From: Defluviicoccus sp.
Lineage (GTDB): Bacteria > Pseudomonadota > Alphaproteobacteria > Rhodospirillales > Defluviicoccaceae
Length of the DNA: 64,000 nucleotides
Direction: 5' to 3'
NCBI GenBank assembly: GCA_029624735.1
Contig: JARSSM010000016.1
Span: forward strand, 5,993-69,992
This document shows, in pieces, positions 13,734-28,391 of this stretch (position 1 is the stretch's first letter; every line of letters starts with the position of its first letter). Position numbers and translations under genes: made by a program. The notes beneath the pieces were generated by a model. That model was not told the DNA's origin and ran no database searches. It saw nothing but the letters and a program-made list of their open reading frames with translations.

Positions 13734-13739
13734 TGCACT

Positions 13740-13771
13740 GGCACAAACAGAGCGTCCATTCTGTTTGTGCC
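13740..13771. terminator. Perfect 12-bp inverted repeat after the META gene (terminator or operator)
   Basis: GGCACAAACAGA-gcgtccat-TCTGTTTGTGCC. Confidence 0.45.
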
Positions 13772-13868
13772 GAAAGTGCACGCGATTCAATATGTTGTGC
13801 AGCGAGAACCATGCTCGGGCGTGAAACGCCCGGTCGGGTCGCCGCACTAGCTCTTCGGAGCGTGTTCG

Positions 13869-13905
13869 ATAACGCGCGTGCATGGAATTGCTAGCGAGAC
13901 GGCAT
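13869..13905 (+). promoter_or_regulatory. OxyR/LysR-type four-element box upstream of the DoxX-NDH-2 gene
   Basis: ATAA-N7-GCAT-N7-CTAG-N7-GCAT, 11-bp phasing, resembles box at 22115-22151 read in reverse. Confidence 0.45.
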
Positions 13906-13981
13906 TTCACCGCCGACCGCGCCACCTGCCATGATTCAGGCTCAAGGGTCGGATCGCATCCGCCCGATGGTTTGATGGGAG

Positions 13982-16108
13982 GTGACCATGGCCGGCTCAA
14001 CCGCGGCCGCGCGGATCGGGACGCGTTTCGCGCCGGTATTTGAAGCGTGGGAGAACACGGTCGAGGCGTGCGCGCAGACGCTCGGCCCCGTGCTTGACCT
14101 CATCATCCGCCTCTGGCTGGCACAGATCTTCTTCGTTTCCGGCGTCGTCAAGACGGCGACCTGGGCGTCGACGGTGATGCTCTACACGACGGAGCATCCC
14201 GTACCTGGACTGGCACCGGCGACGGCCGCCGTACTCGGCACCGGCATCGAGCTGATCTGCGCGCCGCTCCTGGCCGTTGGCCTCTTCACGCGGCTCGCGG
14301 TTCTGCCGTTGCTGGCAACCACGCTCTTCTTGCAGCTGACCTACCTGGAACTCACCGACCACAGTTTGTGGATGGTGCTCCTGGGTCTCTTGGCCATCCG
14401 CGGTGCCGGCGCGCTGTCGTTGGACCACCTGATCGCGCCGCACCTGACAGGCTCCGCCATTCCCTTCGCCGCCACGTTACTGCGGCTTTTCAAGTGGCTG
14501 CAGCGAGCCGTCCTGCCCGCGTACCTTGTGGCGGTTCGGATCTGGTTCGGCTGGCTGGTGATGAGTGCTGTAACCGGCAGCGGCGGCGCTGCAACCGCGC
14601 TGACGATCGCCGCCTGTGCGCTGCTCGCGGCCGGGCTGGCGACGCAGTTTGCCGCGCTCGTCCTGATGATCCTGACCCTCACCGCGCAGGCAGCGATCCC
14701 CGAGCTTGGCGATCCCGTCCTGCGCCTGTTCGTCCTGGGCTTCTTCGTGATCCATGGCGCAGGCGCACTCTCGCTGGACCGCTTGGTGCAGACCAGCATT
14801 CGCGCCCTGTGCCCGAGCCTCACCATGGACCCTGCATGGTACGCGGATGCACCGCGGGTCGTTATCATCGGTGCCGGATTTGGCGGCATCGCAGCGGCGC
14901 GGGCGCTCAAGCACGCCCGGGCGCGGGTCACGCTGATCGACCGGCGCAACTACCATCTCTTCCAGCCGCTGTTGTACCAAGTCGCCACCGCGACGCTGTC
15001 GCCCGCCGATATCGCGGTGCCGATCCGCACGCTGGTGCGCGACCAGCGCAACTGCCAGGTCCTGATGGGCCGGGTCACTGCCATCGATCCGCACCGACGC
15101 GAGATCCAGTTCCGCGCCGGTTCGCAGCCGGCGGTCGGCTACGACTACCTGGTGTTGGCGACCGGCGCCCGGCACAGCTACTTCGGCAAGGACGCCTGGG
15201 AGCCGTTCGCGCCCGGCCTGAAGAAGATCGACGACGCAACGGCGATGCGCAGCCGGATCCTCTCCGCCTTCGAACAGGCGGAAGCCAGCGATGATCCGGC
15301 GGAGCGACAGCGTCTCCTGACCTTCGTCATCGTCGGCGGCGGCCCGACCGGAGTCGAGCTCGCAGGCGCGATTGCGGAGTTGGCGCACCACACCCTTCGC
15401 GAGGAATTCCGCAGCATCGATCCGGCCGAGGCGCGCGTCGTGCTCGTCCAGTCGGCGCCGCGCATCCTGCCGGCGCTGCCGGAGAGTCTATCCGTATCCG
15501 CGACCCGCGCCCTCGAAGGTCTTGGCGTCGAGGTCTTACTCAATACCCGCGTCGAAGGCATCGACGGCCAGGGGGCGACCATCGGCAACGAACGCGTCGA
15601 GGCGGGCACAGTGCTGTGGGCGGCAGGGGTCATGGCCTCGCCGGCCGGCCGCTGGATTGACGCTCAGTGCGATAACGCCGGCCGGGTCGAAGTCGCGGCC
15701 GATCTCTCGGTGTCCGGCTTGGCGAACATCTTTGCTATTGGCGATACGGCTGCTTGCGCTGGCGCGGACGGCCGGCCGCTGCCGGGCCTTGCCGCCGTCG
15801 CCAAGCAACAAGGCCACTATGTCGCGCGGCTGATCCGTGCCCGGATCGAAGGCCGGCGCGATCCTGGCCCGTTCCGCTACCGCAATCTCGGCTCGATGGC
15901 GACCATCGGCCGCAAGGCTGCGGTTGCCGAGCTGCCGGGAATGCGGTTGAGCGGTGGTATTGCCTGGTGGCTGTGGGGCTTGGTGCACGTCGCGTTTCTC
16001 GTCGACGCGCGCTCGCGGATCGCGGTGATGTTCGACTGGTTCTGGTCGTATCTCACCTTCAACCGCAGCGTCCGTCTGATCACCGGAGGGGAGGGAAGCG
16101 CCGATTGA
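13982..16108 (+). CDS. Fusion: two DoxX membrane domains plus type II NAD(P)H:quinone oxidoreductase (NDH-2)
   Basis: Two DoxX units each ending GAGALSLD; then IIGAGFGG, RRNYHLFQPLLYQVAT, IVGGGPTGVELAG, LWAAGV, FAIGDTA, AWWLWGLVH; one continuous 708-aa ORF. Confidence 0.85.
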   Translation: MTMAGSTAAARIGTRFAPVFEAWENTVEACAQTLGPVLDLIIRLWLAQIFFVSGVVKTATWASTVMLYTTEHPVPGLAPATAAVLGTGIELICAPLLAVGLFTRLAVLPLLATTLFLQLTYLELTDHSLWMVLLGLLAIRGAGALSLDHLIAPHLTGSAIPFAATLLRLFKWLQRAVLPAYLVAVRIWFGWLVMSAVTGSGGAATALTIAACALLAAGLATQFAALVLMILTLTAQAAIPELGDPVLRLFVLGFFVIHGAGALSLDRLVQTSIRALCPSLTMDPAWYADAPRVVIIGAGFGGIAAARALKHARARVTLIDRRNYHLFQPLLYQVATATLSPADIAVPIRTLVRDQRNCQVLMGRVTAIDPHRREIQFRAGSQPAVGYDYLVLATGARHSYFGKDAWEPFAPGLKKIDDATAMRSRILSAFEQAEASDDPAERQRLLTFVIVGGGPTGVELAGAIAELAHHTLREEFRSIDPAEARVVLVQSAPRILPALPESLSVSATRALEGLGVEVLLNTRVEGIDGQGATIGNERVEAGTVLWAAGVMASPAGRWIDAQCDNAGRVEVAADLSVSGLANIFAIGDTAACAGADGRPLPGLAAVAKQQGHYVARLIRARIEGRRDPGPFRYRNLGSMATIGRKAAVAELPGMRLSGGIAWWLWGLVHVAFLVDARSRIAVMFDWFWSYLTFNRSVRLITGGEGSAD

Positions 16109-16264
16109 CCGTCTGCGCTTGGCTTGGAGATCCTCCTGCAGCGCCCGTAGATGGAATTTGCCATCTGGGATTTCTTGCGTCCGGCCCTGATCCGAATTAG
16201 GATTTCACCGCTCCAGTTTTGCGGGACCGCTTGAATAAACCAAGAACGCTGGGATGAGGCGGGA

Positions 16265-17197
16265 ATGGAGCTCTACCAAGTTAAGTACTTTGTCAGCCTG
16301 TGCGAGACCCTCAACTTCACGCGTGCTGCGGAAAAGTGCAACGTAGCGCAGCCGAGCCTGACTCGCGCAATCCAGAACCTTGAGCGCGAGTTGGGTGGTC
16401 CTCTTTTCCACCGCGAACGTCAGAATACGCACCTCACCGAGTTGGGCCGCCTCATGCAGCCCTACTTCGAGGATATGCTGGGCCAAACACAGGCGGCGCA
16501 CGCTTTCGCCCGCAGTTTTGCCAACCTGGATGGCATCTCGCTGCGGATTGGCGTGATGTGCACGATCGGGCCAATCATGGTGTCGGATTTCCTGCGTTCG
16601 TTTGCCGAGCGCCATCAGGGGTTGGACATCTGCGTGCTCGACGCCTCCGCCCAGGCGTTGCAGAGCAAGCTGCTGAACGGCGAGATCGAGGTTGCCATCT
16701 ACGGTATGCCGGAACTGCAGCCGCACGACCGCTTGCACGCCTTACCACTGTTCTACGAACGCTTCGTCGTCGCGGTCGCGCGCGACCATCCGCTCGCCGC
16801 ACACGAGACCGTGCGCTGCAAAGATTTGCACAAGGGGCGTTACATCAACCGGATCAATTGCGAAGTATACGAGGTGGCGACTGCAGCCCTGCAACGCCTG
16901 GGCGTCGAGGTGCAAATGGTTTTCCGCAGCGAGCGCGATGACTGGGTCCAGGCGATGATCGCCGCCGGGCACGGCTTCGGTTTCTTTCCTGAGTACTGCG
17001 TCACCATGCCCGGCATCGTCGGCCGCCCCTTGGTCGAGCCGGAAATGTACCGCACGGTCGATCTGGTCACCGTGCGCGGCCGTCCGTTCTCGCCTGCCGT
17101 GGGCGCATTCGTGCGCGCGGCGAAGGCATTCACGTGGTCGCCGGCGCCGCCGGTCCCTCGGCCACACGACACGGATCGCGGCGCCTTCGCGGCCTGA
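16265..17197 (+). CDS. LysR-family regulator, OxyR-like
   Basis: HTH NFTRAAEKCNVAQPSLTRAIQNLE; GVMCT100IGP; Cys199 in RINCE. Confidence 0.9.
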   Translation: MELYQVKYFVSLCETLNFTRAAEKCNVAQPSLTRAIQNLERELGGPLFHRERQNTHLTELGRLMQPYFEDMLGQTQAAHAFARSFANLDGISLRIGVMCTIGPIMVSDFLRSFAERHQGLDICVLDASAQALQSKLLNGEIEVAIYGMPELQPHDRLHALPLFYERFVVAVARDHPLAAHETVRCKDLHKGRYINRINCEVYEVATAALQRLGVEVQMVFRSERDDWVQAMIAAGHGFGFFPEYCVTMPGIVGRPLVEPEMYRTVDLVTVRGRPFSPAVGAFVRAAKAFTWSPAPPVPRPHDTDRGAFAA

Positions 17198-17263
17198 ACG
17201 GTTGCCGATGGTGTCCTGAACCACAGCCAAGCAGATCCACCGCAGACGCAAGGAATCCCGGGG

Positions 17264-18142
17264 ATGGAGCTGTACCAGGTCAAGTACTTCCTTGCCGTCT
17301 GCGATCTCCTCAACTTCACCCGCGCGGCCGAACGCTGCAACGTTTCGCAGCCGAGCTTGACTCGCGCCATTCAGAACCTGGAGGCCGAGTTCGGCGGCCC
17401 GCTGTTTCACCGTGAGCGCCAGAACACGCACCTGACCGACTTGGGCCAGATGGTCCGCCCCTACCTTGAGGAGGTCGGCCAGCAGGCCGAAGCGGCGCGC
17501 GAGCGGGCCAGGCAGTATGTCAAACTGACAGATGCGCCGCTGATGGTCGGCGTCATGTGTACGATCGGTCCCGGGAAGCTGGTGCCGCTCTTTGCCGAGT
17601 TCCAGCGCAGCTATCCGGGCGTCGATATCGCGCTCCGCGACGCCCGCGCGGAAATGCTGCGCGACATGCTGGCCAAGGGTGAACTCGACCTTGCCATCTT
17701 CGGCCAGCCGGAACCGCCCGACGACCGTTTCAATGCATTGGAGCTGTTTCACGAATCGTTCGTGATCGGCTTCGGGCCAGGCCATCCGTTCGAGCCCTTG
17801 AACGCCGTCCGGCTGAGCGATCTGCATCAGATGCGCTACTTGAGCCGCGCCAATTGCGAGTTCGGAGACTATATGCGCGCGATGTGCCGGGAGCGCGGGA
17901 TCGAGCCGCTACGCCCTTACCGCAGCGAACGCGATGACTGGATTCAGGCGATGGCGCTGGCCGGGCTCGGCTTTACGTTCATCCCGCAGTTTGCGGTCAC
18001 AATCCCGGACCTGATTACGCGGCCGCTGATCGAGCCGGAGGTCGCTCGCACGGTTCATCTGGTAACCGTACGCGGCCGGCCGCACGGCAAGGCGGTCGGC
18101 GCCTTCGTCCGCACGGCGATGGCTCTGCGGGGAAAACTCTAG
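17264..18142 (+). CDS. LysR-family regulator, OxyR-like (paralog of upstream gene)
   Basis: Near-identical HTH; GVMCT100IGP; Cys198 and Cys208. Confidence 0.9.
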   Translation: MELYQVKYFLAVCDLLNFTRAAERCNVSQPSLTRAIQNLEAEFGGPLFHRERQNTHLTDLGQMVRPYLEEVGQQAEAARERARQYVKLTDAPLMVGVMCTIGPGKLVPLFAEFQRSYPGVDIALRDARAEMLRDMLAKGELDLAIFGQPEPPDDRFNALELFHESFVIGFGPGHPFEPLNAVRLSDLHQMRYLSRANCEFGDYMRAMCRERGIEPLRPYRSERDDWIQAMALAGLGFTFIPQFAVTIPDLITRPLIEPEVARTVHLVTVRGRPHGKAVGAFVRTAMALRGKL

Positions 18143-18216
18143 CCAGTTAGCGGCACGGCCACGATGACGTGGTCGTGCGGTCGCCAGAGGCCAGGCGCCA
18201 ACTCTTCCCTCCATCC

Positions 18217-18260
18217 GCATGAACGTTCCAGCATGAGCGTTCCAGCATGTCGCGTGCATG
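18217..18260. repeat. Short tandem repeat with GCATG core (14,14,11-bp spacing)
   Basis: GCATGAACGTTCCA GCATGAGCGTTCCA GCATGTCGCGT GCATG. Confidence 0.6.
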
Positions 18261-18357
18261 TTGGCAGGAACAATTGACGGTCAGTTGTTCAGCGGAGATA
18301 ATAGTGGCAAAGCGCTCGTGATAATAAGGACGCTTGCCACCCAAATGGAGGTCGACA

Positions 18358-18705
18358 ATGAAGCGCATCGCATCAAGTTTGTTACTTGGTGTTATTGTTG
18401 GTTGTGCTTCTATTGGTTCTGCTCACGCGGCAGAGGTATTCGTGATTCGTGGAGCAGAAGCGAAATCGGTTGCAACGGAACCAACCCCCGGGGTTACCGT
18501 TCTGCGCGGCGAACCAGCCGCGATCGCTGAACCAGCAGCGGCGGCACAGGGCACTGCGGCGACAGAGGAGGATGCGCCAGCGGAGTCGGGTGAGTTCATG
18601 ACCGGCGGCCGGCCGCTCTGGCGCATCGATCACGAAACGGGTCGCATCGTCGGCTGTTGGCTGCGGGGGTCCGCGAACCGGCAGGTTGTCTGCTCCAATC
18701 TCTGA
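18358..18705 (+). CDS. Hypothetical secreted protein
   Basis: GGAGG RBS before ATG 18358; Sec-type signal MKRIASSLLLGVIVGCASIGSAHA; Ala/Pro/Glu linker; C-terminal domain with two Cys. Confidence 0.6.
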   Translation: MKRIASSLLLGVIVGCASIGSAHAAEVFVIRGAEAKSVATEPTPGVTVLRGEPAAIAEPAAAAQGTAATEEDAPAESGEFMTGGRPLWRIDHETGRIVGCWLRGSANRQVVCSNL

Positions 18706-18727
18706 GCGGCCGGGCGAGGCTTCCTTC

Positions 18728-19417
18728 TCAGCGCGCGTGGCCGATGGCCCGGCGGTCACCTTCCCGTTTCCCCTCAACGGCGCCGACCGCCGCGACGATC
18801 GCTTCCGGTTCTGCGCATTCGCGGTGATCGGGGCAGACGAAAGCCGCCACCGCCATGCCGCCGGGGTCGATGACATAGCTCGCCGGGATCGGCAGGAACG
18901 CGGTGGGCCCGCCGTTGCGGTCCATCAGGTCAATACCACGGGCGCGATAGACCGCCTGCAGCGGGCCGGGTACGGGATAGCGCAGGCCGAACAGCTGGCA
19001 GACCTTAGCGCCGGGATCGCTGAGACGCGTCAGCCCCTCGAACGTGTCGGCAGCCGCGGTCGGATCCGTTCGGTCCTGCACCGGCGAGATGGCGAGCAGC
19101 GTCGCGCTCTGTTCGGCAATGAGTGGAGCGAGGGGGGCATACGCCGCCAGGACGGCGGCACACAGCGGACACCAGGGGCCGCAGGTGAACGTCAGTACCA
19201 CGGGACCGCGGTCGAGCCGGTCGATTAACCGCACCACCCGCCCGTTCGCGTCGGCGAGCGTGAATTCAGGCGCCAGTTCGCCATCCCGCAGCGCGCCCCC
19301 TTCGACGCCCGATTGCGCGAGCCACTGAGCGGCGTAGTCCATGGTCCGAACCTGCTTGGGCGTGAAACCGCGCCGCCACGTCGCACGCGCTTCGGCCAAA
19401 GTGTCTGCGAGCGTCAT
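18728..19417 (-). CDS. AhpC/TSA (peroxiredoxin-like, thioredoxin-fold) protein
   Basis: APEFTLADANG, GPVVLTF, GPWCPLC, LLAISP, LPIPASYVID. Confidence 0.8.
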   Translation of the reverse strand: MTLADTLAEARATWRRGFTPKQVRTMDYAAQWLAQSGVEGGALRDGELAPEFTLADANGRVVRLIDRLDRGPVVLTFTCGPWCPLCAAVLAAYAPLAPLIAEQSATLLAISPVQDRTDPTAAADTFEGLTRLSDPGAKVCQLFGLRYPVPGPLQAVYRARGIDLMDRNGGPTAFLPIPASYVIDPGGMAVAAFVCPDHRECAEPEAIVAAVGAVEGKREGDRRAIGHAR

Positions 19418-19475
19418 TCTTGCGCATCCGTCATTCTGGTGCCATTCGGCCAAGTGCCATTCGTCGCGAGAAATT

Positions 19476-19501
19476 CAGCCGGCCTCTGCCGAGGCCGGCT
19501 G
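19476..19501 (-). terminator. Probable intrinsic terminator after the DoxX gene
   Basis: 11-bp stem CAGCCGGCCTC/GAGGCCGGCTG, 4-nt loop, weak AAUUUC tail on minus strand. Confidence 0.5.
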
Positions 19502-19534
19502 CAGGTGGGGGGGAGCAACGTCGATGCGCGCGGG

Positions 19535-20011
19535 TCAGGACTGCTGATCCTCGAACAGCCGTCCGGCGATGAGGTGATCAATCGACAGCGCACCGGGCCC
19601 GCGGGTCACAAGGTACGCAAGGATCGATCCCCACAGCAGATGATCGGGCCAGTTCTCCGGGTAGACGAACAGCTGGATGACGAGGGTCATGCCCAACAGC
19701 GCCGCCGCGGCGAAGCGGGTGAAAAGACCGCATGCGACCAGAGCCGAGGCACCGAGCTCGGTTGCGGTGGCGAGGTAAGCCGCAAACGCCGCCGGCAGCA
19801 CCGGCACCATGTATTCCATGTCGAACAGGGCGACGGTTGCATCCCAACTCGCGATCTTGGTCAGGCCCGAGCGGAAGAACACGACGGCGACGGCCAAGCG
19901 GAACGCCAGCGCCAGGATGGACGTCGGGAATTTCTCCAACAGAGCACGGCCGGCGATGATGCTTCCGGTCAGGCTGCCGCTGCGGAGCGGGTGTGACAGT
20001 GTGGTAGCCAT
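19535..20011 (-). CDS. DoxX family membrane protein (BufD-like)
   Basis: RLAVAVVFFRSGLTKI, ELGASALVACGLFTRFAA, HLLWG, RGPGALSIDH; last gene of DUF692 operon. Confidence 0.88.
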   Translation of the reverse strand: MATTLSHPLRSGSLTGSIIAGRALLEKFPTSILALAFRLAVAVVFFRSGLTKIASWDATVALFDMEYMVPVLPAAFAAYLATATELGASALVACGLFTRFAAAALLGMTLVIQLFVYPENWPDHLLWGSILAYLVTRGPGALSIDHLIAGRLFEDQQS

Positions 20012-20028
20012 GATACCTCCTCACGAGA

Positions 20029-20817
20029 TCAGTTGATTGCAGTAACCGAGGCGACGACACCGCCTTCGAACAGCGACTCCAGGAGAGCGGGTGCGTTGAA
20101 CGAAGGCGCAATCGCGCGGGCGAGCGCGTTTGCCTTGCCGAGTCGACCGTCGGCAAGCAGGCTGCCGATGAAGGCAAATGCGGCGGCATCGAGCTTGAGC
20201 CAGCCGACTTCACCGTCCTGGCGATGGATGAACAGCTGCACACCGCCGGCCTCAAGATCGACCGCCGCGATTTCGTCATCGCCTTGCTGGTGAACCTGCC
20301 AGATCCGGTCGACCGGCCATGCCGACTTGACCAGACGGCAGGATGGATCGAGGCCGATGAACAGATCGCAAGACGGCGCTTCGATCTGCGCTGCCGCCGC
20401 TGCTGCATCGAGTGACGGCACATCGACGGCATGGCGGGCGCGGTTGATCGCCCACTCCAGCCGCGCCAGGTCGGCGAGATAGCCGAGCGAACCCGCTTCC
20501 GGCAGGCTTGCGAGGAACGCCGGAAAGCCGTCGCCGTACTCGAACAGGCACGGCCGCTGCGGCGGCTGGCTGAGGACATAGCGGCGCGCGGCTGCGGTAA
20601 AGAAGGCGTCGCCCACCAGCCGCCGGACGACGGGGAAGGTGGCGCCCAAGGCTTCGATGAGCGTCAGGCGGAAGTGATGGACATGGATCGCAAGCCGTGC
20701 CGACGCTCCCGGCGCATCCTCGACAATGGCGTTCGTGCCGGCGAAGGCCTGCTCCGCGAGCAGCCTTCCGGCTGCAACGGCGGCGAAACGGCTCTGCAGT
20801 TCACGCAGCGGCAGCAT
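20029..20817 (-). CDS. DUF2063 family MNIO partner/chaperone (BufC/HvfC-like)
   Basis: RLAIHVHHFRLTLIEALGATFPVVRRLVGDAFF, YGDGFPAFL, DLARLEWA; overlaps DUF692 end. Confidence 0.85.
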   Translation of the reverse strand: MLPLRELQSRFAAVAAGRLLAEQAFAGTNAIVEDAPGASARLAIHVHHFRLTLIEALGATFPVVRRLVGDAFFTAAARRYVLSQPPQRPCLFEYGDGFPAFLASLPEAGSLGYLADLARLEWAINRARHAVDVPSLDAAAAAAQIEAPSCDLFIGLDPSCRLVKSAWPVDRIWQVHQQGDDEIAAVDLEAGGVQLFIHRQDGEVGWLKLDAAAFAFIGSLLADGRLGKANALARAIAPSFNAPALLESLFEGGVVASVTAIN

Positions 20818-21670
20818 AACCCACCTCCTTGTGCACGGACCGCCAGCGGCGATCGGCCTCTTGCGCTTCCGCCACCAGGACTGGCAGCGGCGGCAGATTG
20901 CTGTCCCACTCGATCAGGGTGGCGGCATTCGGGAAGCGGGCGACGGCCCGCTCATAGAGTTCCCACACGGCGGCCGAAACCTGGCTGCCGTGATCATCGA
21001 TGAGGATCGTCACGCCGTCGGCGTCGTTGACGGCGTGCCCGGCAAGGTGAAGCTCATGCACGGCATCCGCTGGCAGGCCTTCGATCCACGCCAGGGGATC
21101 GCCGCCAAAATTGCGGCAGTTGACGAACACGTTATTGACATCAAACAACAGGCCGCAGCCGGTTCGCCGAACCAGCTCATTGAGGAATTCGACTTCGCTC
21201 AGTGTCGATTGTGCGAAACGAAGGTAGGCGGACGGATTCTCGATCAGAAGCTGGCGCCGCAGACGGTCCTGGACTTGGGCAATGTTGGCCGCGACCACGG
21301 CGAGGCTCTCCTCGCTGTAGGGAAGCGGCAAGAGATCGTTGAGGTACATCCCGTCGACGACCGACCAGGCGAGGTGCTCCGAGACCCAGTCCGGCTCGAT
21401 ACGCTCGACCAGTCGTGCCAGCCGTTCGAGGTGCCGGTCGTTGATGCCCTCGGCACTGCCAAGCGACATCCCGACGCCGTGCACGCTGATCGGCCAATGA
21501 CGCCGCACGACCTCGAGACGCGCCGGCATCCGGCCGCCGCCCATATAATTTTCGGCGTGGATCTCCAGAAAACCGACCGCCGGTCGGGTCGCGACGATCT
21601 CCTCGAAGTGCGGGCAACGGAGGCCGATGCCCGCCGTCTGGCGCTCTGTGGAGGAAGGTAGGGTGGACAT
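20801..21670 (-). CDS. DUF692 multinuclear non-heme iron oxidase (MNIO, BufB-like RiPP maturase)
   Basis: GIGLR, EIHAENY, HGVGMSLGS, SEHLAW, DLLPLP, IENPSAY, DVNNVFV, ELHLAGH, IDDHGS, LIEWD. Confidence 0.93.
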   Translation of the reverse strand: MSTLPSSTERQTAGIGLRCPHFEEIVATRPAVGFLEIHAENYMGGGRMPARLEVVRRHWPISVHGVGMSLGSAEGINDRHLERLARLVERIEPDWVSEHLAWSVVDGMYLNDLLPLPYSEESLAVVAANIAQVQDRLRRQLLIENPSAYLRFAQSTLSEVEFLNELVRRTGCGLLFDVNNVFVNCRNFGGDPLAWIEGLPADAVHELHLAGHAVNDADGVTILIDDHGSQVSAAVWELYERAVARFPNAATLIEWDSNLPPLPVLVAEAQEADRRWRSVHKEVGYAAAA

Positions 21671-21709
21671 GATCGTCGCTCCCGCCGGAGGTGGTGCCTT
21701 GTTGGTGGG

Positions 21710-21973
21710 CTACTTCTTGGTCGTCGAGCCACCGACCAGCTTGTCGCAGGTGCCGGCCGGAACGTAGACCCACGAGTCCGGCTGTGCGTCGCGCTTGGCG
21801 GTACCGGCGCACGAGCTGCCCGCCGTCTGGCAGTCGTTCATGCCGGCCTTCACGACGCCGAAGCACTTCTCGAACTTGTAGGTCGGCTGCTCGGCGGGGC
21901 CGGCGAGGGCAGCCGCGGAAACGGCAACGGTACCGACGAGGGCTGAAGCCAGTGCCAAAGTCGTCTTCTTCAT
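21710..21973 (-). CDS. DUF2282 bufferin-type (BufA1-like) periplasmic RiPP precursor
   Basis: 87 aa; signal peptide then EKCFGVVKAGMNDC-x6-CAGT...WVYVPAGTCDKLVGGS (C37, C48, C55, C76); GGGAGA RBS. Confidence 0.9.
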   Translation of the reverse strand: MKKTTLALASALVGTVAVSAAALAGPAEQPTYKFEKCFGVVKAGMNDCQTAGSSCAGTAKRDAQPDSWVYVPAGTCDKLVGGSTTKK

Positions 21974-22114
21974 CTTTCGATCTCCCACTGAAGTGTTGAC
22001 AAGGAAACGGTTCACTCTCGTTGCACTTAAGGAGCTGGTGGGTGGGCTCTGTTGTCGCCGCGATCACCGCCTCAAGCGCGCTATCACATTCCCGCAAACG
22101 CGTCTGAGAGTGAA

Positions 22115-22151
22115 ATGCAGATCGCCTATGGCTTCGATAGGCGAGCGCTAT
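22115..22151. promoter_or_regulatory. OxyR-type box upstream of the RiPP precursor
   Basis: ATGC-N7-CTAT-N7-ATAG-N7-CTAT; 14 of 16 positions match ATAG-N7-CTAT-N7-ATAG-N7-CTAT. Confidence 0.65.
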
Positions 22152-22168
22152 GTTCGCGCCAGCCGCCC

Positions 22169-22205
22169 ATAACCCCGCTCAGTCCCGACGATAGCTTGCC
22201 GTCAT
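22169..22205 (+). promoter_or_regulatory. Second, weaker LysR-type box facing the SDR operon
   Basis: ATAA-N7-CAGT-N7-ATAG-N7-TCAT. Confidence 0.4.
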
Positions 22206-22323
22206 GAACATGAGAGCGAGTCGCTATTTCCCTCTGACGGCCCGCTTGTTGAGAATGAGTGTCGTAGCGGTCGAGGCCGATCAGGGCCGCCGTCAACCGA
22301 ACAACCCGCGGAGGAATGCCATC

Positions 22324-23193
<870 letters not shown>

Positions 23194-23197
23194 GCCG

Positions 23198-24211
23198 ATG
23201 CGGCGGATCCTGCTCGCACTGGCGCTTGCGGCCTCGGCCGCAAGCCCGGCCTGGTCCGGCGAAGGGGGCGGGAGCGCGGCTTCCGACTCCCGCGCCGACC
23301 TGCCCGACGGTGTCGCCCCGTGGTGGCCCAGCCGCTACGGCGCCGACGATGAGATCGGCACGCTCAACGAGCTCACACCGGCGCGCATTGTCGAGGCGGT
23401 GCGGCTCGTCCGCCAGGGCGAGCGCATTGACCTCGGCCGCGTGCTCGACAAGGACACACCGGTCTTCCCCGGCCGCTACTGGCACCAGAGCGTCGATCTC
23501 GCGCCGCTGATCACCAACCTGCGCCGCGCCGACGCGCACGGCCGCGGCTGGGGGCTCAACGAAATCAACTGGATCACCGAGATCCAGGTCGGCACCTTCC
23601 AGGTCGGCACCCAGCTCGACTCGATCGGCCATCTGCAGATTGGCGACCGCTTCTACAACGGCTGGAAAACCCGCGATGTGGTCGAGGACTGGGGCCTCAA
23701 CCGGTTCGGGATCGAATCCGTCCCGCCGATCGTCGGCCGCGGCATCGTGGTCGATCTCGCCGGATTGAACGGCGTCGAACGCCTCGACAAGGGCACGGTG
23801 ATCGGTGTGGCCGACGTCGAGCGTGCCCTCGCCCGCCAGGGCATCACGATTGCTGAAGGCGATATCGTGCTGCTCCACACCGGCTGGGGCAGCCTCTGGG
23901 GCAAGGACAACGCGCTGTTCCTGTCGGGCGAACCGGGCCCCGGTCTGGCGCTCACCGAGTGGCTGCACGCCAAGCGCATTGCCGCACTCGGCACGGATAG
24001 CTGGAGCATCGGCCCGGTTCCGGGCGAGGACCCGGCGCGCCCGTTCGTCGTCCCGCAGACGATGTACGTCAAGATGGGGCTGTTCGGCTTCGAGAACCTC
24101 GCCACCGAACGGCTGGTCGAGCGCGGCATCTCCGAATTCCTGTTCGTCAACACGCACGGCCGGACGCGCGGCTCGACGGCCGCAGTCGTTGCACCAGTGG
24201 CCGTGTACTGA
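23198..24211 (+). CDS. Exported metal-dependent hydrolase, cyclase/kynurenine formamidase family
   Basis: Signal peptide; YGADDEIGTLN, QVGTQLDSIGH, LLHTGW, GTDSW, ENL. Confidence 0.8.
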   Translation: MRRILLALALAASAASPAWSGEGGGSAASDSRADLPDGVAPWWPSRYGADDEIGTLNELTPARIVEAVRLVRQGERIDLGRVLDKDTPVFPGRYWHQSVDLAPLITNLRRADAHGRGWGLNEINWITEIQVGTFQVGTQLDSIGHLQIGDRFYNGWKTRDVVEDWGLNRFGIESVPPIVGRGIVVDLAGLNGVERLDKGTVIGVADVERALARQGITIAEGDIVLLHTGWGSLWGKDNALFLSGEPGPGLALTEWLHAKRIAALGTDSWSIGPVPGEDPARPFVVPQTMYVKMGLFGFENLATERLVERGISEFLFVNTHGRTRGSTAAVVAPVAVY

Positions 24212-24228
24212 AGGTTGCGGAGGAGACA

Positions 24229-25686
24229 ATGGACGACGATTTCGACGCGATCATTGTCGGCTCGGGCGCCGGCGGCGGTGCCGCTGCGTACCGGCTGGCG
24301 ACAAGCGGCTGCCGCGTGCTGGTGCTGGAGAAGGGCGCGCCACTGCCGCACGACGGCAGCACGCTCGACGCCGGCATCGTCCTCAGCGAGGGCCGCTTCA
24401 AGAACCACGCCCCGTGGCGGGACGGCGACGGCGCCCCCTTCGTGCCGCAGGAGTACTACAACCTGGGCGGCAAGACGAAGTGGTACGGCGCCGCGCTCTT
24501 ACGCTTTGGCAGCCATGAGTTTGCCGACGATCCAGCGCATCAGTGCCGCGGCTGGCCGTTCGCATACGACGCGTTGGCACCCTACTATGAACAGGCCGAA
24601 GACCTTCTGGGCGTGCGCCGCTTCGCCGTCGAGCCCGATACGCAGCGCATCGCAGCGGCGTTTGAACGGGTCGCGCATGGCTGGCAGGTCGAGCCGATGC
24701 CACTCGGGCTCGCCGCCGACATCCTCGAACATCCGGAGGAAGCCGTGCGGTTCGACGGCTTCGCTTCCCCGCGCGGCCTGAAATCGGACGCCGAGGTCCG
24801 CTTGTTGGATCCGCTGCGCAACCGTCCCGGCATCCGTATCGAAACGAACGCCGAGGTCGTGGACCTTATCACGGCCGAGGGAGCGCCGGAGCGCGTCACC
24901 GGTGTCGTCACCGCCGACGGATCACGCTTCACCGCCAAGATGGTCCTGCTCGCCGCCGGTGCCCTGTCCTCACCGCGCCTCCTGCAGCACCATCTGCATG
25001 CAACCGGCTTGGATACGGTCCTGCCGGCGGCGCAATCGGTCGGCCGCAACTACAAGAGCCACCTGTTGACGGCAGTCGTTGGCTGGTCGCCGCGGCGGAA
25101 GACCGACCGCCTGCGCAAGACGGTGGTGATGACGAGCGAGGCCTTCGCGCATTCGAGCGTGCAGCCGCTGGGCGCCACCGACGGTGAGATCGTCGCCACC
25201 GAGCTGCCGGCATTCATGCCGCGCTGGGTTGCTGATCTGGTCGGCAACCGCGCCTACGGCTTTTTCCTGCAGACCGAGGACGGCTCGCATCCCGATAACC
25301 GGGTGAGCGCGGCAAACGGCTTTGCAAGCCCGCAGCTCGACTATGACCGCGACCGCATCGCGCCGGCGCGCGATGAACATCGCCATTTCGTGCGCGCGTT
25401 CTGCCGCGATCTCTTGCGGGTGGGGATGTTCCCGATCGTCAAGCCGATCCCGCTTTCCGGCACGGCGCACGCCTGCGGCACGCTGATCGCCGGCAATGAC
25501 CCTGCAACCTCGGTGGTCGACGCCTTCGGCAAGGTGCACGGCATGGACGGTCTCTATGTCGTCGACGGCAGCGTCCTGCCGCGCTCCAGCCGCGTCAATC
25601 CCGCGCTCACGATCTACGCCTGGGCGCTCCGCGTCGCCGACAGCCTTGCGCCTCAGCTTGCCTCCCATTCTGGAGAAAACCGATGA
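24229..25686 (+). CDS. GMC family oxidoreductase
   Basis: IIVGSGAGGG, LGGKTKWYGA, LAAGALSSPRLL, AHACGT, YVVDGSVLP, NPALTI. Confidence 0.88.
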   Translation: MDDDFDAIIVGSGAGGGAAAYRLATSGCRVLVLEKGAPLPHDGSTLDAGIVLSEGRFKNHAPWRDGDGAPFVPQEYYNLGGKTKWYGAALLRFGSHEFADDPAHQCRGWPFAYDALAPYYEQAEDLLGVRRFAVEPDTQRIAAAFERVAHGWQVEPMPLGLAADILEHPEEAVRFDGFASPRGLKSDAEVRLLDPLRNRPGIRIETNAEVVDLITAEGAPERVTGVVTADGSRFTAKMVLLAAGALSSPRLLQHHLHATGLDTVLPAAQSVGRNYKSHLLTAVVGWSPRRKTDRLRKTVVMTSEAFAHSSVQPLGATDGEIVATELPAFMPRWVADLVGNRAYGFFLQTEDGSHPDNRVSAANGFASPQLDYDRDRIAPARDEHRHFVRAFCRDLLRVGMFPIVKPIPLSGTAHACGTLIAGNDPATSVVDAFGKVHGMDGLYVVDGSVLPRSSRVNPALTIYAWALRVADSLAPQLASHSGENR

Positions 25687-28391
25687 CCATCCGCACAACC
25701 CTTGCCCCGGAACGGCAGCGTCTGGAAAACCAGCGCTCAGGCGTCGAAAACTGGCGGCGCTGGGGGCCTTACCTCTCCGAGCGCGCCTGGGGCACGGTGC
25801 GCGAGGACTACAGCGCCGACGGCAACGCCTGGAACTACCTTTCCCATGATGACTCGCGCTCGCGCGCCTATCGCTGGAGCGAGGACGGCCTGGGCGGCCT
25901 TTCGGATGACCAGCAGCGGCTGTGCTTCGCCTTGGCACTTTGGAACGGCGCCGATGCGATCCTCAAGGAACGCGCATTCGGCCTGACCGGCAACCAGGGC
26001 AACCGCGGCGAGGACGTCAAGGAGTACTACTTCTATCTGGACGCCACGCCCAGCCACAGCTTCCTGCGCTACCTTTACAAGTATCCGCAGCGCCGCTTCC
26101 CCTATGAGCGTCTGATCGAAGAGAACGCGCGCCGATCCCGGCACGAACCGCCGTTCAATTTGAGCGAAGCCGGCCTGTTCGACGACGGCCGCTACTTCGA
26201 TGTCGAGGTGTGCTGCGCCAAGGCCGGCGCGGACGAGATTCACATCCGCATCACCGCGGCCAATCGCGGGCCGGAGCCGGCCACCTTGCATCTGCTGCCG
26301 ACCTTGTGGTTCCGCAACACCTGGTCATGGGGCGATGGAACGGCCAAGCCGGTCATGCGCCAGGTCGTGCCGCCCAAGGGTGCCGCCTGGGCCATCGAGG
26401 CAGCGCACGAAGAGCTCGGCCAGGTGTTTCTCTATGGTGCGCAGGAGGGAACACCGCTTTTCACCGAGAACGAGACCAATGGCCGCCGGCTCTGGGGCGA
26501 CGCGCACGCCAGCCCGTACGCCAAGGACTCCTTCCATCGCCGCATCATCAACGGCGAGACGGGTGCGGTCAGAACGGACGGTACCGGCACCAAGTTCGCC
26601 TCCTGGCACGCGTTGACGGTGCCGCCGGGAACGAGCGTGCACCTCGATCTCGTGCTTTCGGAACGGCCGTTGAGCCAGCCCTTTGCCCGCAGCGAGATGG
26701 TGTTCGTGGCCAGACGTGACGAAGCCGATGCCTTCTATGCGGAGGTGCTGCCCGAGGCGAACGCCGAGGACCGGCGTATCGTCCGCCAGGCGCTGGCCGG
26801 GATGATCTTCTCCAAGCAGTTCTTCCATTTCGATGTCAGCCGCTGGCTCGATGGCGATGCCTTCCCCGCTCCGGCAGAGCGCCAGTGCGGTCGTAACGCA
26901 CGCTGGAAGCACATGAAGGCGGCCGACATCCTCTCGATGCCGGATGCCTGGGAGTACCCCTGGTTTGCCGCCTGGGATCTGGCGTTTCACACCGCGGCGC
27001 TGGCCCTGGTCGATGTCGATTTCGCCAAGGACCAGATCGAGATCATGGTCAACGAGCGCTACCTGCACCCGAACGGCCAGATCCCGGCGTACGAATGGAA
27101 CTTCTCTGACGTCAATCCGCCGGTGCACGCGCTGGGGGCGCTGAAAGTATTCCGGGCCGAGCGCGTGCAGCGCGGCCTGGGCGACCATGCGTTTTTGGGC
27201 CGCGTCTTCCACAAGCTGCTGCTCAATTTCGCCTGGTGGATCAACCAGAAGAACGGCGACGGCAGTAACGTTTTCGAGGGCGGGTTCCTCGGTCTCGATA
27301 ATATCTCGGTGTTCGACCGCTCGCAGCCGCTGCCGGGCGGCTACCGGCTCAAACAGGCCGATGCCACCGGCTGGATGGCGATGTTCGCGCTCAACATGAC
27401 GCTGATCGCGCTCGAACTCACGGCCGACGATCCGGCCTACGAGGACATCGCGATCCAGACCTACGAGCAGTTCTTGAGCATTGCCAACACGCTCGCCGGC
27501 TATGCCGACGGCGGCGTGCCGATCTGGGACGAAGGCAGCGGTTTTTTCAAGGACCTGATCGTCGGCCCGAACGGGACAAGCCGGCATATCGACGTCTACT
27601 CGATGGTCGGCCTGATCCCGCTGTATGCGACCGAGATCGTCGATCAGCGCCTGCTCGCGCACGCGCCGCGGTTCCGCGAACGCCTGCGCCGCCACGCCGG
27701 CGGCGTTTTCCGCGGCAACATCATCTGCGCCTGCCCGGAGACCGTGAACGCGCGCGGCGAGCATCTGCTCTCGGTCGTCGATCACACGATGCTTCAGCCG
27801 CTGCTCGGGCGGCTCCTTGACGAAGCGCAGTTCCTCTCGCCGTTCGGCGTCCGCAGCGTCAGCAAGATCCACGAACAGCATCGGGAGTTGGGCGAGCTGC
27901 CTGGCGTCGGCTGGGCGATGATCGAGTACGTCCCCGGCGAATCGAACTCGCCGCTGTTCGGCGGCAACTCGAACTGGCGCGGGCCGATCTGGATGCCGGT
28001 GAACTTCCTGCTCGTCCAGTCGCTGGAGAAGTTCTACCGCTACCTGGGCGACAATTTCACCGTAGCGGTGCCCAGCTTGGGCGGTGCCGCGCTCAACCTC
28101 CAGGAGATTGCGCACCTCATCGCCGAGCGGCTCGTCAACATCTACCGCCGCGACCCGAACGGTACCGTGGCGGCGATGCAGGGCCAGCCGCAGTTCACGA
28201 ACGACGCACACTGGCGCGACCTGCTGCTGTTCTACGAGTATTTCCATGCCGAGACCGGCCAGGGCCTCGGCGCCGCGCATCAGACCGGCTGGACCGGCCT
28301 GATCGCGAACCTGGTGATGCGCCGCTACCGTCGCGGCATCCCCCGCTACTGGCGGGAGCAGCAGGCGCATGCAGCGGCGGCGGCCGAGTAA
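25683..28391 (+). CDS. MGH1-like glycoside hydrolase (GH63-related)
   Basis: WGPYLSERAWGTVREDYS, MPDAWEYPWFAAWDLAFH, DFSDVNPPVH-like NFSDVNPPVH, GESNSPLFGGNSNWRGPIW, GAAHQTGWT. Confidence 0.82.
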   Translation: MTIRTTLAPERQRLENQRSGVENWRRWGPYLSERAWGTVREDYSADGNAWNYLSHDDSRSRAYRWSEDGLGGLSDDQQRLCFALALWNGADAILKERAFGLTGNQGNRGEDVKEYYFYLDATPSHSFLRYLYKYPQRRFPYERLIEENARRSRHEPPFNLSEAGLFDDGRYFDVEVCCAKAGADEIHIRITAANRGPEPATLHLLPTLWFRNTWSWGDGTAKPVMRQVVPPKGAAWAIEAAHEELGQVFLYGAQEGTPLFTENETNGRRLWGDAHASPYAKDSFHRRIINGETGAVRTDGTGTKFASWHALTVPPGTSVHLDLVLSERPLSQPFARSEMVFVARRDEADAFYAEVLPEANAEDRRIVRQALAGMIFSKQFFHFDVSRWLDGDAFPAPAERQCGRNARWKHMKAADILSMPDAWEYPWFAAWDLAFHTAALALVDVDFAKDQIEIMVNERYLHPNGQIPAYEWNFSDVNPPVHALGALKVFRAERVQRGLGDHAFLGRVFHKLLLNFAWWINQKNGDGSNVFEGGFLGLDNISVFDRSQPLPGGYRLKQADATGWMAMFALNMTLIALELTADDPAYEDIAIQTYEQFLSIANTLAGYADGGVPIWDEGSGFFKDLIVGPNGTSRHIDVYSMVGLIPLYATEIVDQRLLAHAPRFRERLRRHAGGVFRGNIICACPETVNARGEHLLSVVDHTMLQPLLGRLLDEAQFLSPFGVRSVSKIHEQHRELGELPGVGWAMIEYVPGESNSPLFGGNSNWRGPIWMPVNFLLVQSLEKFYRYLGDNFTVAVPSLGGAALNLQEIAHLIAERLVNIYRRDPNGTVAAMQGQPQFTNDAHWRDLLLFYEYFHAETGQGLGAAHQTGWTGLIANLVMRRYRRGIPRYWREQQAHAAAAAE

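What the first reader, a model, noticed from the sequence alone, without database searches (positions are those of the whole stretch)
22115..22205. Paired OxyR-type operator boxes in the divergent promoter, echoed upstream of DoxX-NDH-2
Seen: ATGC-N7-CTAT-N7-ATAG-N7-CTAT (22115-22151), ATAA-N7-CAGT-N7-ATAG-N7-TCAT (22169-22205) and ATAA-N7-GCAT-N7-CTAG-N7-GCAT (13869-13905). AT-containing tetramers in exact 11-bp phase stand out in this GC-rich DNA. Established: ATAG-N7-CTAT-N7-ATAG-N7-CTAT is the oxidised-OxyR consensus. Inference: these define the regulon of the local LysR pair or of the housekeeping OxyR.
Basis: partly seen in the sequence, partly recalled or inferred. Interest (0 to 1): 0.7.

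Follow-up and report, generated by a model that had tools for sequence, protein, structure and literature searches.

The report
Operators of a bufferin-cluster LysR regulator
Three conserved 40-bp OxyR-like DNA boxes are the only such sites in this genome, and they most likely let a LysR-type regulator encoded in the same cluster switch on a copper-binding peptide (bufferin) operon and two neighbouring redox operons.

Summary
Scoring every 37-nt window of the 3.40-Mb genome against ATAG-N7-CTAT-N7-ATAG-N7-CTAT gives one 14/16 hit (22115) and one 13/16 hit (22191). Both lie in this intergenic region.

The third box (13869) is weak against the E. coli consensus (10/16). It is nevertheless the next-best genome hit to matrices built from orthologues of box 1 or box 2 alone.

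All three are conserved across the genus at fixed distances from bufA, an SDR gene and the DoxX-NDH-2 gene. A strict pattern finds three hits per genome, all in this cluster, in seven cluster-bearing genomes.

Elsewhere in the class the same motif lies within 1.5 kb of orthologues of the local LysR gene in 16 of 29 loci, usually divergent and next to its start. The ahpC-oxyR intergenic region lacks it. A -10-like nAnnnT sits at a fixed offset in 47 of 53 operators, putting the dyads near -65 and -43.

Verdict: these are genuine OxyR-type operators of a cluster-dedicated, uncharacterised LysR subfamily, not of housekeeping OxyR. No binding or transcript data exist.

The parts
22112..22151 (-). 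Operator S1 for the bufA (bufferin) operon. Read on the - strand: ATAGCGCTCGCCTATCGAAGCCATAGGCGATCTGCATTTC. Distal dyad ATAGC-N5-GCTAT-like; proximal half CATAG-N7-GCAT, followed by TTC.
   Evidence: Best OxyR-consensus match in the genome, 14/16. Conserved in 11 orthologous loci, 114-146 bp from the bufA ATG. Scores 42.9 bits with the generalised matrix; the next unrelated hit is 9.0.
22191..22230 (+). Operator S2 for the SDR-cyclase-GMC-GH63 operon: ATAGCTTGCCGTCATGAACATGAGAGCGAGTCGCTATTTC.
   Evidence: Second-best OxyR-consensus match in the genome, 13/16. Conserved in 9 orthologous loci, 93-132 bp upstream of the SDR ATG. Absent where the SDR gene is not adjacent (G009, G002). Scores 43.7 bits.
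13869..13908 (+). Operator S3 for the DoxX-NDH-2 (-LysR1-LysR2?) transcription unit: ATAACGCGCGTGCATGGAATTGCTAGCGAGACGGCATTTC.
   Evidence: Second-best genome hit for matrices built only from S1 or only from S2 orthologues. Conserved in 9 genomes. Scores 44.5 bits.
22086..22114 (-). Predicted bufA promoter: -35 TTCACT (22114-22109), 17-nt spacer, -10 GAATGT (22091-22086). Predicted TSS about 22079. The spacer holds a genus-conserved block, GACGCAtTyGCrGGA.
   Evidence: Inference from a fixed-offset signal: A at operator position 62 in 47/53 and T at position 66 in 42/53 non-redundant operators. There is no strong sigma-70 consensus in the region. Alignment.
22228..22256 (+). Predicted SDR promoter: -35 TTCCCT (22228-22233), -10 GAGAAT (22251-22256). 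Predicted TSS about 22263.
   Evidence: Same anchored analysis; sequence.
13906..13935 (+). Predicted DoxX-NDH-2 promoter: -35 TTCACC (13906-13911), 18-nt spacer, -10 CATGAT (13930-13935). Predicted TSS about 13942.
   Evidence: Conserved GsCAT about 20 nt after GGCATTTC.
16265..17197 (+). LysR1, candidate cognate regulator. LTTR with invariant Cys99 (MCTIGP) and Cys199 (NCE).
   Evidence: Pfam HTH_1 and LysR_substrate. 100.5-101.1 bits to the NCBIfam OxyR model, cut-off 329. Orthologue present in every related genome where the cluster was recovered intact. Cys invariant in 120/120 homologues.
17264..18142 (+). LysR2, a tandem paralogue 54% identical to LysR1 with a nearly identical HTH. Has an extra Cys208.
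   Evidence: The tandem pair occurs only in G000, G004, G008 and G010; other genomes have a single copy.
18728..21973 (-). Target operon 1: bufA (21710-21973, DUF2282), bufB MNIO (20801-21670), bufC DUF2063 (20029-20817), DoxX (19535-20011), AhpC/TSA-type redoxin (18728-19453).
   Evidence: Pfam and NCBIfam. BufB scores 372.8 bits against a cut-off of 310.
22324..28391 (+). Target operon 2: SDR (22324-23193), cyclase (23198-24211), GMC oxidoreductase (24229-25686), GH63-like (25683-28391).
   Evidence: Pfam. Synteny.
13982..16108 (+). Target gene 3: DoxX-NDH-2 fusion (the ATG at 13989 has a GGAGG upstream).
   Evidence: Pfam DoxX, Pyr_redox_2 and NDH2_C.

Best explanation
The three boxes are operators of the LysR-type regulator(s) encoded in the same cluster: LysR1, LysR2 or both. 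These belong to an uncharacterised, OxyR-related LTTR subfamily.

Each operator is a 40-bp element, ATAGC-N6-CTAT-CGAA-N4-(A/T)AG-N6-CGGCATTTC. It points towards its target gene. The well-conserved dyad (ATAG-N7-CTAT, a T-N11-A LysR box) is distal, and the GCATTTC end overlaps a weak -35 hexamer (TTCnnn).

Inferred mechanism: a tetramer occupies four successive major grooves, with dyads centred near -65 and -43. It then recruits RNA polymerase to three promoters that have no strong sigma-70 consensus. These drive the bufferin operon (bufABC-DoxX-redoxin), the divergent SDR-cyclase-GMC-GH63 operon, and DoxX-NDH-2. The last may read through into the LysR genes and so give autoregulation.

More speculatively, the signal is a thiol-reactive stress (oxidant, Cu(I) or sulfane sulfur) sensed by the invariant Cys99/Cys199 pair.

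Shown: uniqueness in the genome, conservation, orientation, co-occurrence with the regulator gene, and a -10-like signal at a fixed offset. Inferred: which protein binds, activation rather than repression, TSS positions and the signal.
For: Uniqueness. The genome-wide rank 1 and rank 2 matches to a consensus defined in another organism both lie in this intergenic region. Leave-one-site-out matrices recover the third site as the next-best hit in 3.4 Mb. With the generalised matrix the three sites score 42.9-44.5 bits; the next unrelated hit is 9.0.

Conservation. S1, S2 and S3 are kept as footprints in orthologous loci where BufB identity falls to about 63%, while flanking and spacer bases vary. 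S1 tracks bufA and S2 tracks the SDR gene, and the distance between them varies from 53 to 289 bp.

Pattern scan. The strict IUPAC pattern gives exactly 3 hits per genome, all in the cluster, in 7 cluster-bearing genomes. It gives 0 hits in the 16 genomes of other families in the order. The reversed-pattern control gave 1 hit across the 41 genomes.

Link to the regulator gene.
- LTTR orthologues were found in every related genome where the cluster was recovered intact.
- In a 400-genome sample of the class, 9 GC-rich genomes (6 genera) had convincing sites, and all 9 carry an LTTR orthologue. The base rate is 32/400.
- 16 of 29 LTTR-orthologue loci (1.5 kb either side) carry a site of at least 14 bits, mostly 14-140 bp from the LTTR start and divergent from it.
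- Only 3 of 80 BufB loci (854 kb) carry one. One of those (L009) has the LTTR, and another (L013) has a site 110 bp upstream of bufA.
- Bufferin clusters without the LTTR lack the motif: the second cluster in G010, and 77 of the 80 diverse loci.

Housekeeping OxyR. The ahpC-oxyR intergenic region lacks the motif.

Promoter geometry. A at operator position 62 in 47/53 and T at position 66 in 42/53 operators. This puts the dyad centres near -65 and -43, matching E. coli oxyS IR1 and IR2 at -66 and -44 (PMC5002191).

Relationship to OxyR. The closest solved structure by sequence is P. aeruginosa OxyR 4x6g.
Against: There is no binding, footprint or expression data.

In this genus the LTTR genes are not adjacent to any operator. 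The nearest is S3, 2.4 kb upstream of LysR1, so the local link is by cluster membership only.

The matrices were built from related sequences, so their scores are inflated by construction.

13 of the 29 distant LTTR loci show no site within 1.5 kb.

The '9 convincing sites' were picked by eye among 43 pattern-positive genomes. Most hits in AT-rich genomes are noise.

Cross-binding by housekeeping OxyR to so OxyR-like a site cannot be excluded.
Confidence: 0.85

Rival explanations
1. The boxes are targets of the housekeeping OxyR (C1:178306-179214). On this reading the cluster is simply part of the peroxide regulon.
For: 14/16 and 13/16 identity to the oxidised-OxyR consensus (the consensus as stated in PMC8787470). 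The cluster encodes redox proteins: an AhpC/TSA-type redoxin, DoxX and NDH-2.
Against: No window scoring 10/16 or better exists in the ahpC-oxyR intergenic region. No other site in the genome passes any of the matrices. Across lineages the motif follows the cluster-type LTTR gene and usually abuts its start codon.
Confidence: 0.07
2. Only one of the two paralogues (LysR1 or LysR2) uses these operators. The other has diverged to a different signal or acts as an anti-activator or heteromer partner.
For: The HTH regions are almost identical. Single-copy genomes keep all three operator types. LysR2 alone has a Cys208 placed as in OxyR. The duplication is restricted to one sub-clade.
Against: Nothing in the DNA distinguishes two operator classes that would match two proteins. 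This is a refinement of the best explanation rather than a competitor.
Confidence: 0.3
3. The phased AT-rich tetramers are a compositional or chance feature of AT-richer intergenic DNA and have no regulatory role.
For: The intergenic region is slightly AT-richer, 59-60% GC against 65%.
Against: Ranks 1 and 2 of 3.4 million windows lie 76 bp apart. The tetramers are conserved while the spacers vary, across genera and families. The offset to a -10-like signal is fixed.
Confidence: 0.01

Closest known systems
OxyR operators (E. coli oxyR-oxyS, katG, ahpC; P. aeruginosa OxyR regulon): two tandem ATAG-N7-CTAT repeats
   Same: Four ATAG-type elements in 11-bp phase (14/16 and 13/16 identity). The inferred dyad centres of about -65 and -43 match oxyS IR1 and IR2 at -66 and -44 (PMC5002191). 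The proximal end overlaps -35. The regulator is an LTTR whose nearest solved relative is OxyR, and it has a Cys at the position of OxyR Cys199.
   Different: The regulator is not an OxyR orthologue: 100-103 bits against a cut-off of 329. It lacks Cys208 in most members and instead has an invariant Cys99. The proximal quarter-site is GCAT-TTC rather than CTAT, and a conserved CGAA sits between the dyads. The targets are a bufferin gene cluster, DoxX-NDH-2 and an SDR operon, not catalase or ahpC. The genome has a separate ahpCD-linked OxyR.
Generic LysR-type regulator RBS/ABS promoter architecture (T-N11-A box; for example BenM, CbnR, OccR, CysB)
   Same: A high-affinity dyad with T-N11-A lies distal, and a weaker site overlaps -35. 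In most lineages the regulator gene is divergent and its start lies tens of bp from the distal dyad.
   Different: In this genus the regulator genes have moved away from every operator and are duplicated in tandem. One regulator type serves three promoters in a 16-kb cluster.
SigF-NrsF (ECF sigma / anti-sigma) control of bufferin (buf1/buf2, gig) operons in Caulobacter and Cupriavidus; BvgAS control in Bordetella
   Same: It controls the same kind of DUF2282-MNIO-DUF2063-DoxX operon.
   Different: No NrsF was found in this 98.9%-complete genome, and there is no sigma gene in the cluster. The control element is an LTTR operator rather than an ECF promoter. The bufferin papers searched do not mention a LysR regulator.

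Membership tests
OxyR binding site / OxyR regulon | Two tandem ATAG-N7-CTAT repeats with a 7-10 bp interval | tested here: met
   S1 scores 14/16 and S2 13/16, ranks 1 and 2 in the genome. S3 scores only 10/16.
OxyR binding site / OxyR regulon | The regulator is an OxyR orthologue (NCBIfam NF008361 above cut-off; Cys199 and Cys208) | tested here: not met
   LysR1 scores 100.5-101.1 bits and LysR2 102.8-103 bits, against a cut-off of 329. Cys199 is present, and Cys208 only in LysR2. A separate OxyR candidate (231.8 bits, ahpCD-linked) exists elsewhere.
OxyR binding site / OxyR regulon | The motif is present at classical OxyR targets (ahpC, catalase, oxyR itself) | tested here: not met
   No window scoring 10/16 or better in the ahpC-oxyR intergenic region. 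No further genome hit above 9 bits.
LysR-type regulator operator (RBS + ABS) | T-N11-A dyad as the recognition site | tested here: met
   ATAGC-N5-GCTAT in S1 and its orthologues. Consensus ATAgc-N6-ctAT from 31 sites.
LysR-type regulator operator (RBS + ABS) | Distal site near -65 and proximal site overlapping -35 of the regulated promoter | tested here: inconclusive
   A -10-like nAnnnT at a fixed offset in 47/53 operators implies -65 and -43. No TSS data were available.
LysR-type regulator operator (RBS + ABS) | Genetic linkage to the regulator gene, typically divergent | tested here: met
   Same cluster in all genus members. 16 of 29 distant LTTR loci have a site within 1.5 kb of the LTTR gene, most of them next to its start and divergent from it.
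LysR-type regulator operator (RBS + ABS) | Physical binding by the regulator | not testable with these tools
   Needs EMSA, footprinting or DAP-seq.
Buf1-type bufferin biosynthetic gene cluster (the main target) | DUF2282 precursor with signal peptide and 4 Cys, plus MNIO (BufB), DUF2063 (BufC) and DoxX | tested here: met
   DUF2282 at 83.4 bits. MNIO_BufB at 372.8 bits, above the cut-off of 310. DUF2063 and DoxX.
Buf1-type bufferin biosynthetic gene cluster (the main target) | SigF/NrsF regulatory pair, frequent in Buf1 gene clusters | tested here: not met
   No PF06532 match in the genome; the Caulobacter control was positive.

The most novel reading that the evidence does not exclude
A widespread, so far unnamed alphaproteobacterial LTTR subfamily is a thiol-based sensor of copper, oxidant or sulfane-sulfur stress. 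Its members are OxyR-like but use an invariant Cys99-Cys199 pair instead of Cys199-Cys208. Through one 40-bp operator type the subfamily commands a modular 'periplasmic redox/metal defence' regulon: bufferin RiPP, DoxX-NDH-2, a secreted cupin, DUF302, AhpC/TSA redoxin and SDR. In this lineage it replaces the SigF-NrsF system as the switch for bufferin production.
Probability: 0.4. Interest if true: 0.65.

Novelty: new member of a known kind. Interest (0 to 1): 0.5.

Why it matters
Bufferins are a very large family of copper-binding RiPPs. Their only regulators reported in the bufferin papers I read are the ECF pair SigF-NrsF and BvgAS.

This report gives a precise, experimentally addressable alternative. 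It defines a 40-bp operator, three predicted promoters and a candidate sensor protein with two invariant cysteines, and it shows that the module recurs in several alphaproteobacterial families.

The result turns a generic 'LysR family regulator' annotation into a defined regulon. It links bufferin production to a DoxX-NDH-2 fusion and an SDR/GMC/GH63 operon of unknown role. It also supplies a motif that can be used to find further members of this stress regulon in genomes.

The architecture itself is textbook LTTR/OxyR, so the conceptual novelty is moderate.

Tried and rejected
1. The search for related loci with BufB in genome contigs returned only distant loci (65% identity or less) and no same-genus ones. 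These served instead as an LTTR-poor background set.

2. The sigma-70 consensus scan of 21900-22400 found nothing. This is consistent with activator-dependent promoters but is not informative on its own.

4. An Rfam scan of 13600-22600 found no RNA family. No riboswitch explains the long bufA leader.

5. The repeat search of the intergenic region found only short, weak repeats.

6. The class-wide IUPAC pattern scan was dominated by noise in AT-rich genomes, with similar counts for the reversed control. Only the GC-rich hits were usable, and those were then tested against LTTR presence.

7. I considered a SigF-type ECF promoter (GTAACC-N16-CGAA). ATAACC at 22169 is followed after 16 nt by ATAG rather than CGAA, and the stretch is not conserved. 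Rejected.

8. I considered a sigma-54 promoter in the conserved GCATTTGC block. No GG-N10-GC arrangement is present. Rejected.

9. I considered that the two central boxes form one cooperative pair or loop. Rejected because their spacing varies from 53 to 289 bp among orthologues.

10. The matrix hit at the start of the Phenylobacterium LTTR gene (L194) is the coding sequence for MEMQQVRYFL, not a site.

Full report
**Observation**

The region 21974-22323 is the gap between two divergent genes.
- On the - strand, a small signal-peptide protein starts at 21973. It is a DUF2282 bufferin precursor (83.4 bits).
- On the + strand, an SDR gene starts at 22324.

Behind bufA, all on the - strand, lie:
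- an MNIO maturase, BufB (NCBIfam 372.8 bits, cut-off 310)
- DUF2063/BufC
- DoxX
- an AhpC/TSA-type redoxin

Upstream in the window, on the + strand, are a DoxX-NDH-2 fusion (13982-16108) and two tandem LysR-type genes (16265-17197 and 17264-18142). The 'divergent promoter' is therefore bufferin operon versus SDR operon. The LysR pair is about 4 kb away.

**Is it more than chance?**

I laid the whole 3.40-Mb, 65%-GC assembly in the Python box. I then scored every 37-nt window against ATAG-N7-CTAT-N7-ATAG-N7-CTAT.

| Matches out of 16 | Windows |
|---|---|
| 13 | 1 (window 22191-22227) |
| 12 | 16 |
| 11 | 124 |
| 10 | 739 |

The two best matches in the genome to a consensus defined in E. coli therefore lie 76 bp apart in this one intergenic region.

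Box 3 (13869) scores only 10/16, which alone would be ordinary.

**Conservation**

BufB homologues in 40 relatives gave orthologous loci in 10 further genomes with the same synteny: DoxX-NDH-2 > LysR (one or two copies) > < redoxin < DoxX < bufC < bufB < bufA | > SDR.

In all 11 loci, box 1 is retained 114-146 bp from the bufA ATG. Its sequence there is ATAGC-N6-CTAT-N5-CCATAG-N7-GCATTTC, and the spacer bases vary.

In the 9 loci where the SDR gene is adjacent, a second box is retained 93-132 bp from the SDR ATG: ATAG-N7-TCAT-N7-AGAG-N7-CTATTTC. The distance between the two boxes ranges from 53 to 289 bp. The second box is missing exactly where the SDR gene is not adjacent (G009, G002).

The two boxes are therefore two independent, back-to-back operators, one per transcription unit. 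The true second operator is 22191-22230.

**The third box**

Position weight matrices built only from orthologues of S1, or only from orthologues of S2, both rank window 13868-13911 (+) second in the whole genome on both strands. The combined matrix gives 56.5, 54.1 and 31.1 bits for S1, S2 and S3, and 4.9 for the next unrelated hit.

S3 is conserved upstream of DoxX-NDH-2 in 9 genomes. It ends in an invariant GCATTTC about 80 nt before the ATG at 13989.

A strict IUPAC pattern, ATAR-N9-AT-N9-AG-N7-SYATTTY, gave these results:
- exactly three hits per genome, all in the cluster, in seven cluster-bearing genomes
- no hits in the 16 genomes from other families of the order
- one hit for the reversed control across the 41 genomes

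**Which regulator?**

*Housekeeping OxyR.* The genome's best OxyR candidate is C1:178306-179214 (231.8 bits). It has Cys199/Cys208-type cysteines and is divergent from ahpC-ahpD. It has no window scoring 10/16 or better in its own intergenic region. No other site in the genome approaches the motif. With a generalised 31-site matrix the three operators score 42.9-44.5 bits. The reverse reading of the palindromic S1 scores 18.8, and the next unrelated hit 9.0.

*The local LysR proteins in relatives.* They score only about 100 bits against the OxyR model, whose cut-off is 329. Their orthologues were found in every related genome where the cluster was recovered intact. In G001 and G016 the cluster is merely split over contigs, and G016 keeps all three operators.

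*Outside the genus.*
- In an alphaproteobacterial MAG (L009), a 46-49%-identical LTTR is divergent from bufA. The motif ATAACCGCCATGCATCGAAACCATAAGCAGTCGGTATTTC lies 38 bp from its start.
- In a 400-genome sample of the class, the nine GC-rich genomes with convincing pattern hits (six genera) all carry an LTTR orthologue. The base rate is 32/400.
- 16 of 29 LTTR-orthologue loci (1.5 kb either side) carry a site of at least 14 bits. Most sites lie 14-140 bp from the LTTR start and are divergent from it.
- By comparison, 3 of 80 BufB loci totalling 854 kb carry such a site. One of those (L009) has the LTTR. Another (L013) has a site 110 bp upstream of bufA.
- Bufferin clusters lacking the LTTR lack the motif. 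An example is the second cluster of G010.

Other recurrent targets of the motif are a secreted cupin, DUF302, SDR, NDH-2 and AhpC/TSA genes. I conclude that the operators belong to this LTTR subfamily and not to housekeeping OxyR.

**How it probably works**

I anchored 53 non-redundant operators from all lineages on their first base. This reveals A at position 62 in 47/53 and T at position 66 in 42/53, with no comparable signal elsewhere downstream. That is the signature of a -10 hexamer (nAnnnT) 17 nt after a -35 hexamer starting at the TTC of the operator's GCATTTC end.

| Promoter | -35 | -10 | Predicted TSS |
|---|---|---|---|
| bufA (- strand) | TTCACT | GAATGT | about 22079 |
| SDR (+ strand) | TTCCCT | GAGAAT | about 22263 |
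| DoxX-NDH-2 (+ strand) | TTCACC | CATGAT | about 13942 |

The standard sigma-70 scan finds nothing in 21900-22400. This fits weak, activator-dependent promoters.

With these positions the two dyads are centred near -65 and -43. That is the geometry reported for the ATAG-N7-CTAT repeats IR1 and IR2 of E. coli oxyS, at -66 and -44 (PMC5002191). It is also the generic LTTR layout of a recognition site plus an activation site.

The inference is that a tetramer on four successive major grooves activates three promoters. S3 possibly also drives the LysR genes by read-through, since no operator was found in 16109-16264.

**The sensor**

The LTTR subfamily has two cysteines invariant in 120/120 homologues of 54-93% identity:
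- Cys99, in MCTIGP, next to the residue equivalent to OxyR Thr100
- Cys199, in NCE, in the loop of OxyR Cys199

Cys208 occurs only in LysR2 of this sub-clade. The nearest solved structure by sequence is P. aeruginosa OxyR (4x6g, 84.6 bits).

A thiol-based switch responding to oxidant, Cu(I) or sulfane sulfur is a reasonable but untested guess. It is in keeping with the copper-chelating role of bufferins (10.1101/2024.03.18.585515).

**Comparison with what is known**

OxyRs recognise two tandem ATAG-N7-CTAT repeats (PMC8787470), so the sequence criterion is met. The regulator and regulon criteria for 'OxyR site' are not met.

The architecture is a canonical LTTR operator.

For bufferin gene clusters the reported regulators are SigF-NrsF and BvgAS. 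Sigma/anti-sigma genes are described for Buf1 clusters. 'LysR' does not occur in those papers, and I found no paper linking LysR to DUF692 or bufferin. This genome has no NrsF and a single MNIO gene.

**Limits**

No binding or transcript data exist.

The matrices were trained on related sequences. The selection of 'convincing' class-level sites was partly by eye. 13 of 29 distant LTTR loci show no site within 1.5 kb.

A genus-conserved block, GACGCAtTyGCrGGA, in the spacer of the bufA promoter remains unexplained.

**Verdict**

Three corrections apply: box 2 is shifted by 22 bp, the central boxes are two separate operators, and housekeeping OxyR is unlikely to be the regulator.

The finding is a new member of a well-known kind of system. 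It is made more interesting by its target, a bufferin gene cluster, and by the uncharacterised Cys99/Cys199 LTTR subfamily it defines.

Noticed in passing
window 22092-22104 (- strand): A block, GACGCAtTyGCrGGA, is conserved across the genus inside the predicted -35/-10 spacer of the bufA promoter. It is absent from the S2 and S3 promoters. It may be a site for a second regulator.
   Followed up: partly
window 16265-18142: The LTTR subfamily has Cys99 (MCTIGP) and Cys199 (NCE) invariant in 120/120 homologues. LysR2 adds Cys208. The tandem duplication occurs only in G000, G004, G008 and G010; other genus members have one copy.
   Followed up: partly
G000:C21:214-1070 and C11:147392-148700 (outside the window): CRISPR-like array: the repeat ATTGGGCCGGCCTTTCGGCCGGATAGTCAC recurs at a period of about 73 bp. 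It surfaced as 12/16 hits in the consensus scan.
   Followed up: no
G000:C1:177044-179214 (outside the window): Canonical ahpD-ahpC <> oxyR arrangement. The intergenic region of about 80 bp carries TTCGATC-N23-GATCGAA rather than an ATAG/CTAT motif.
   Followed up: partly
L168, L170, L185-L187, L013, L196: In other lineages the same operator lies 70-90 nt upstream of a secreted cupin with a conserved GECPADK...PGG.VPWHSH motif. It also precedes DUF302 genes (L183, L184, L196).
   Followed up: partly
L127 (G010:C25): A second bufferin cluster in a genus member has no LTTR nearby and no operator. This shows the motif is not a general property of bufferin promoters.
   Followed up: yes
L160, L161 (G017): Two SDR paralogues in one relative each carry an S2-type operator about 120 bp upstream.
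   Followed up: no
window 16109-16264: The 156-bp, lower-GC gap between DoxX-NDH-2 and LysR1 has no operator of 8 bits or more. Whether LysR1 has its own promoter or is read through from S3 is open.
   Followed up: partly
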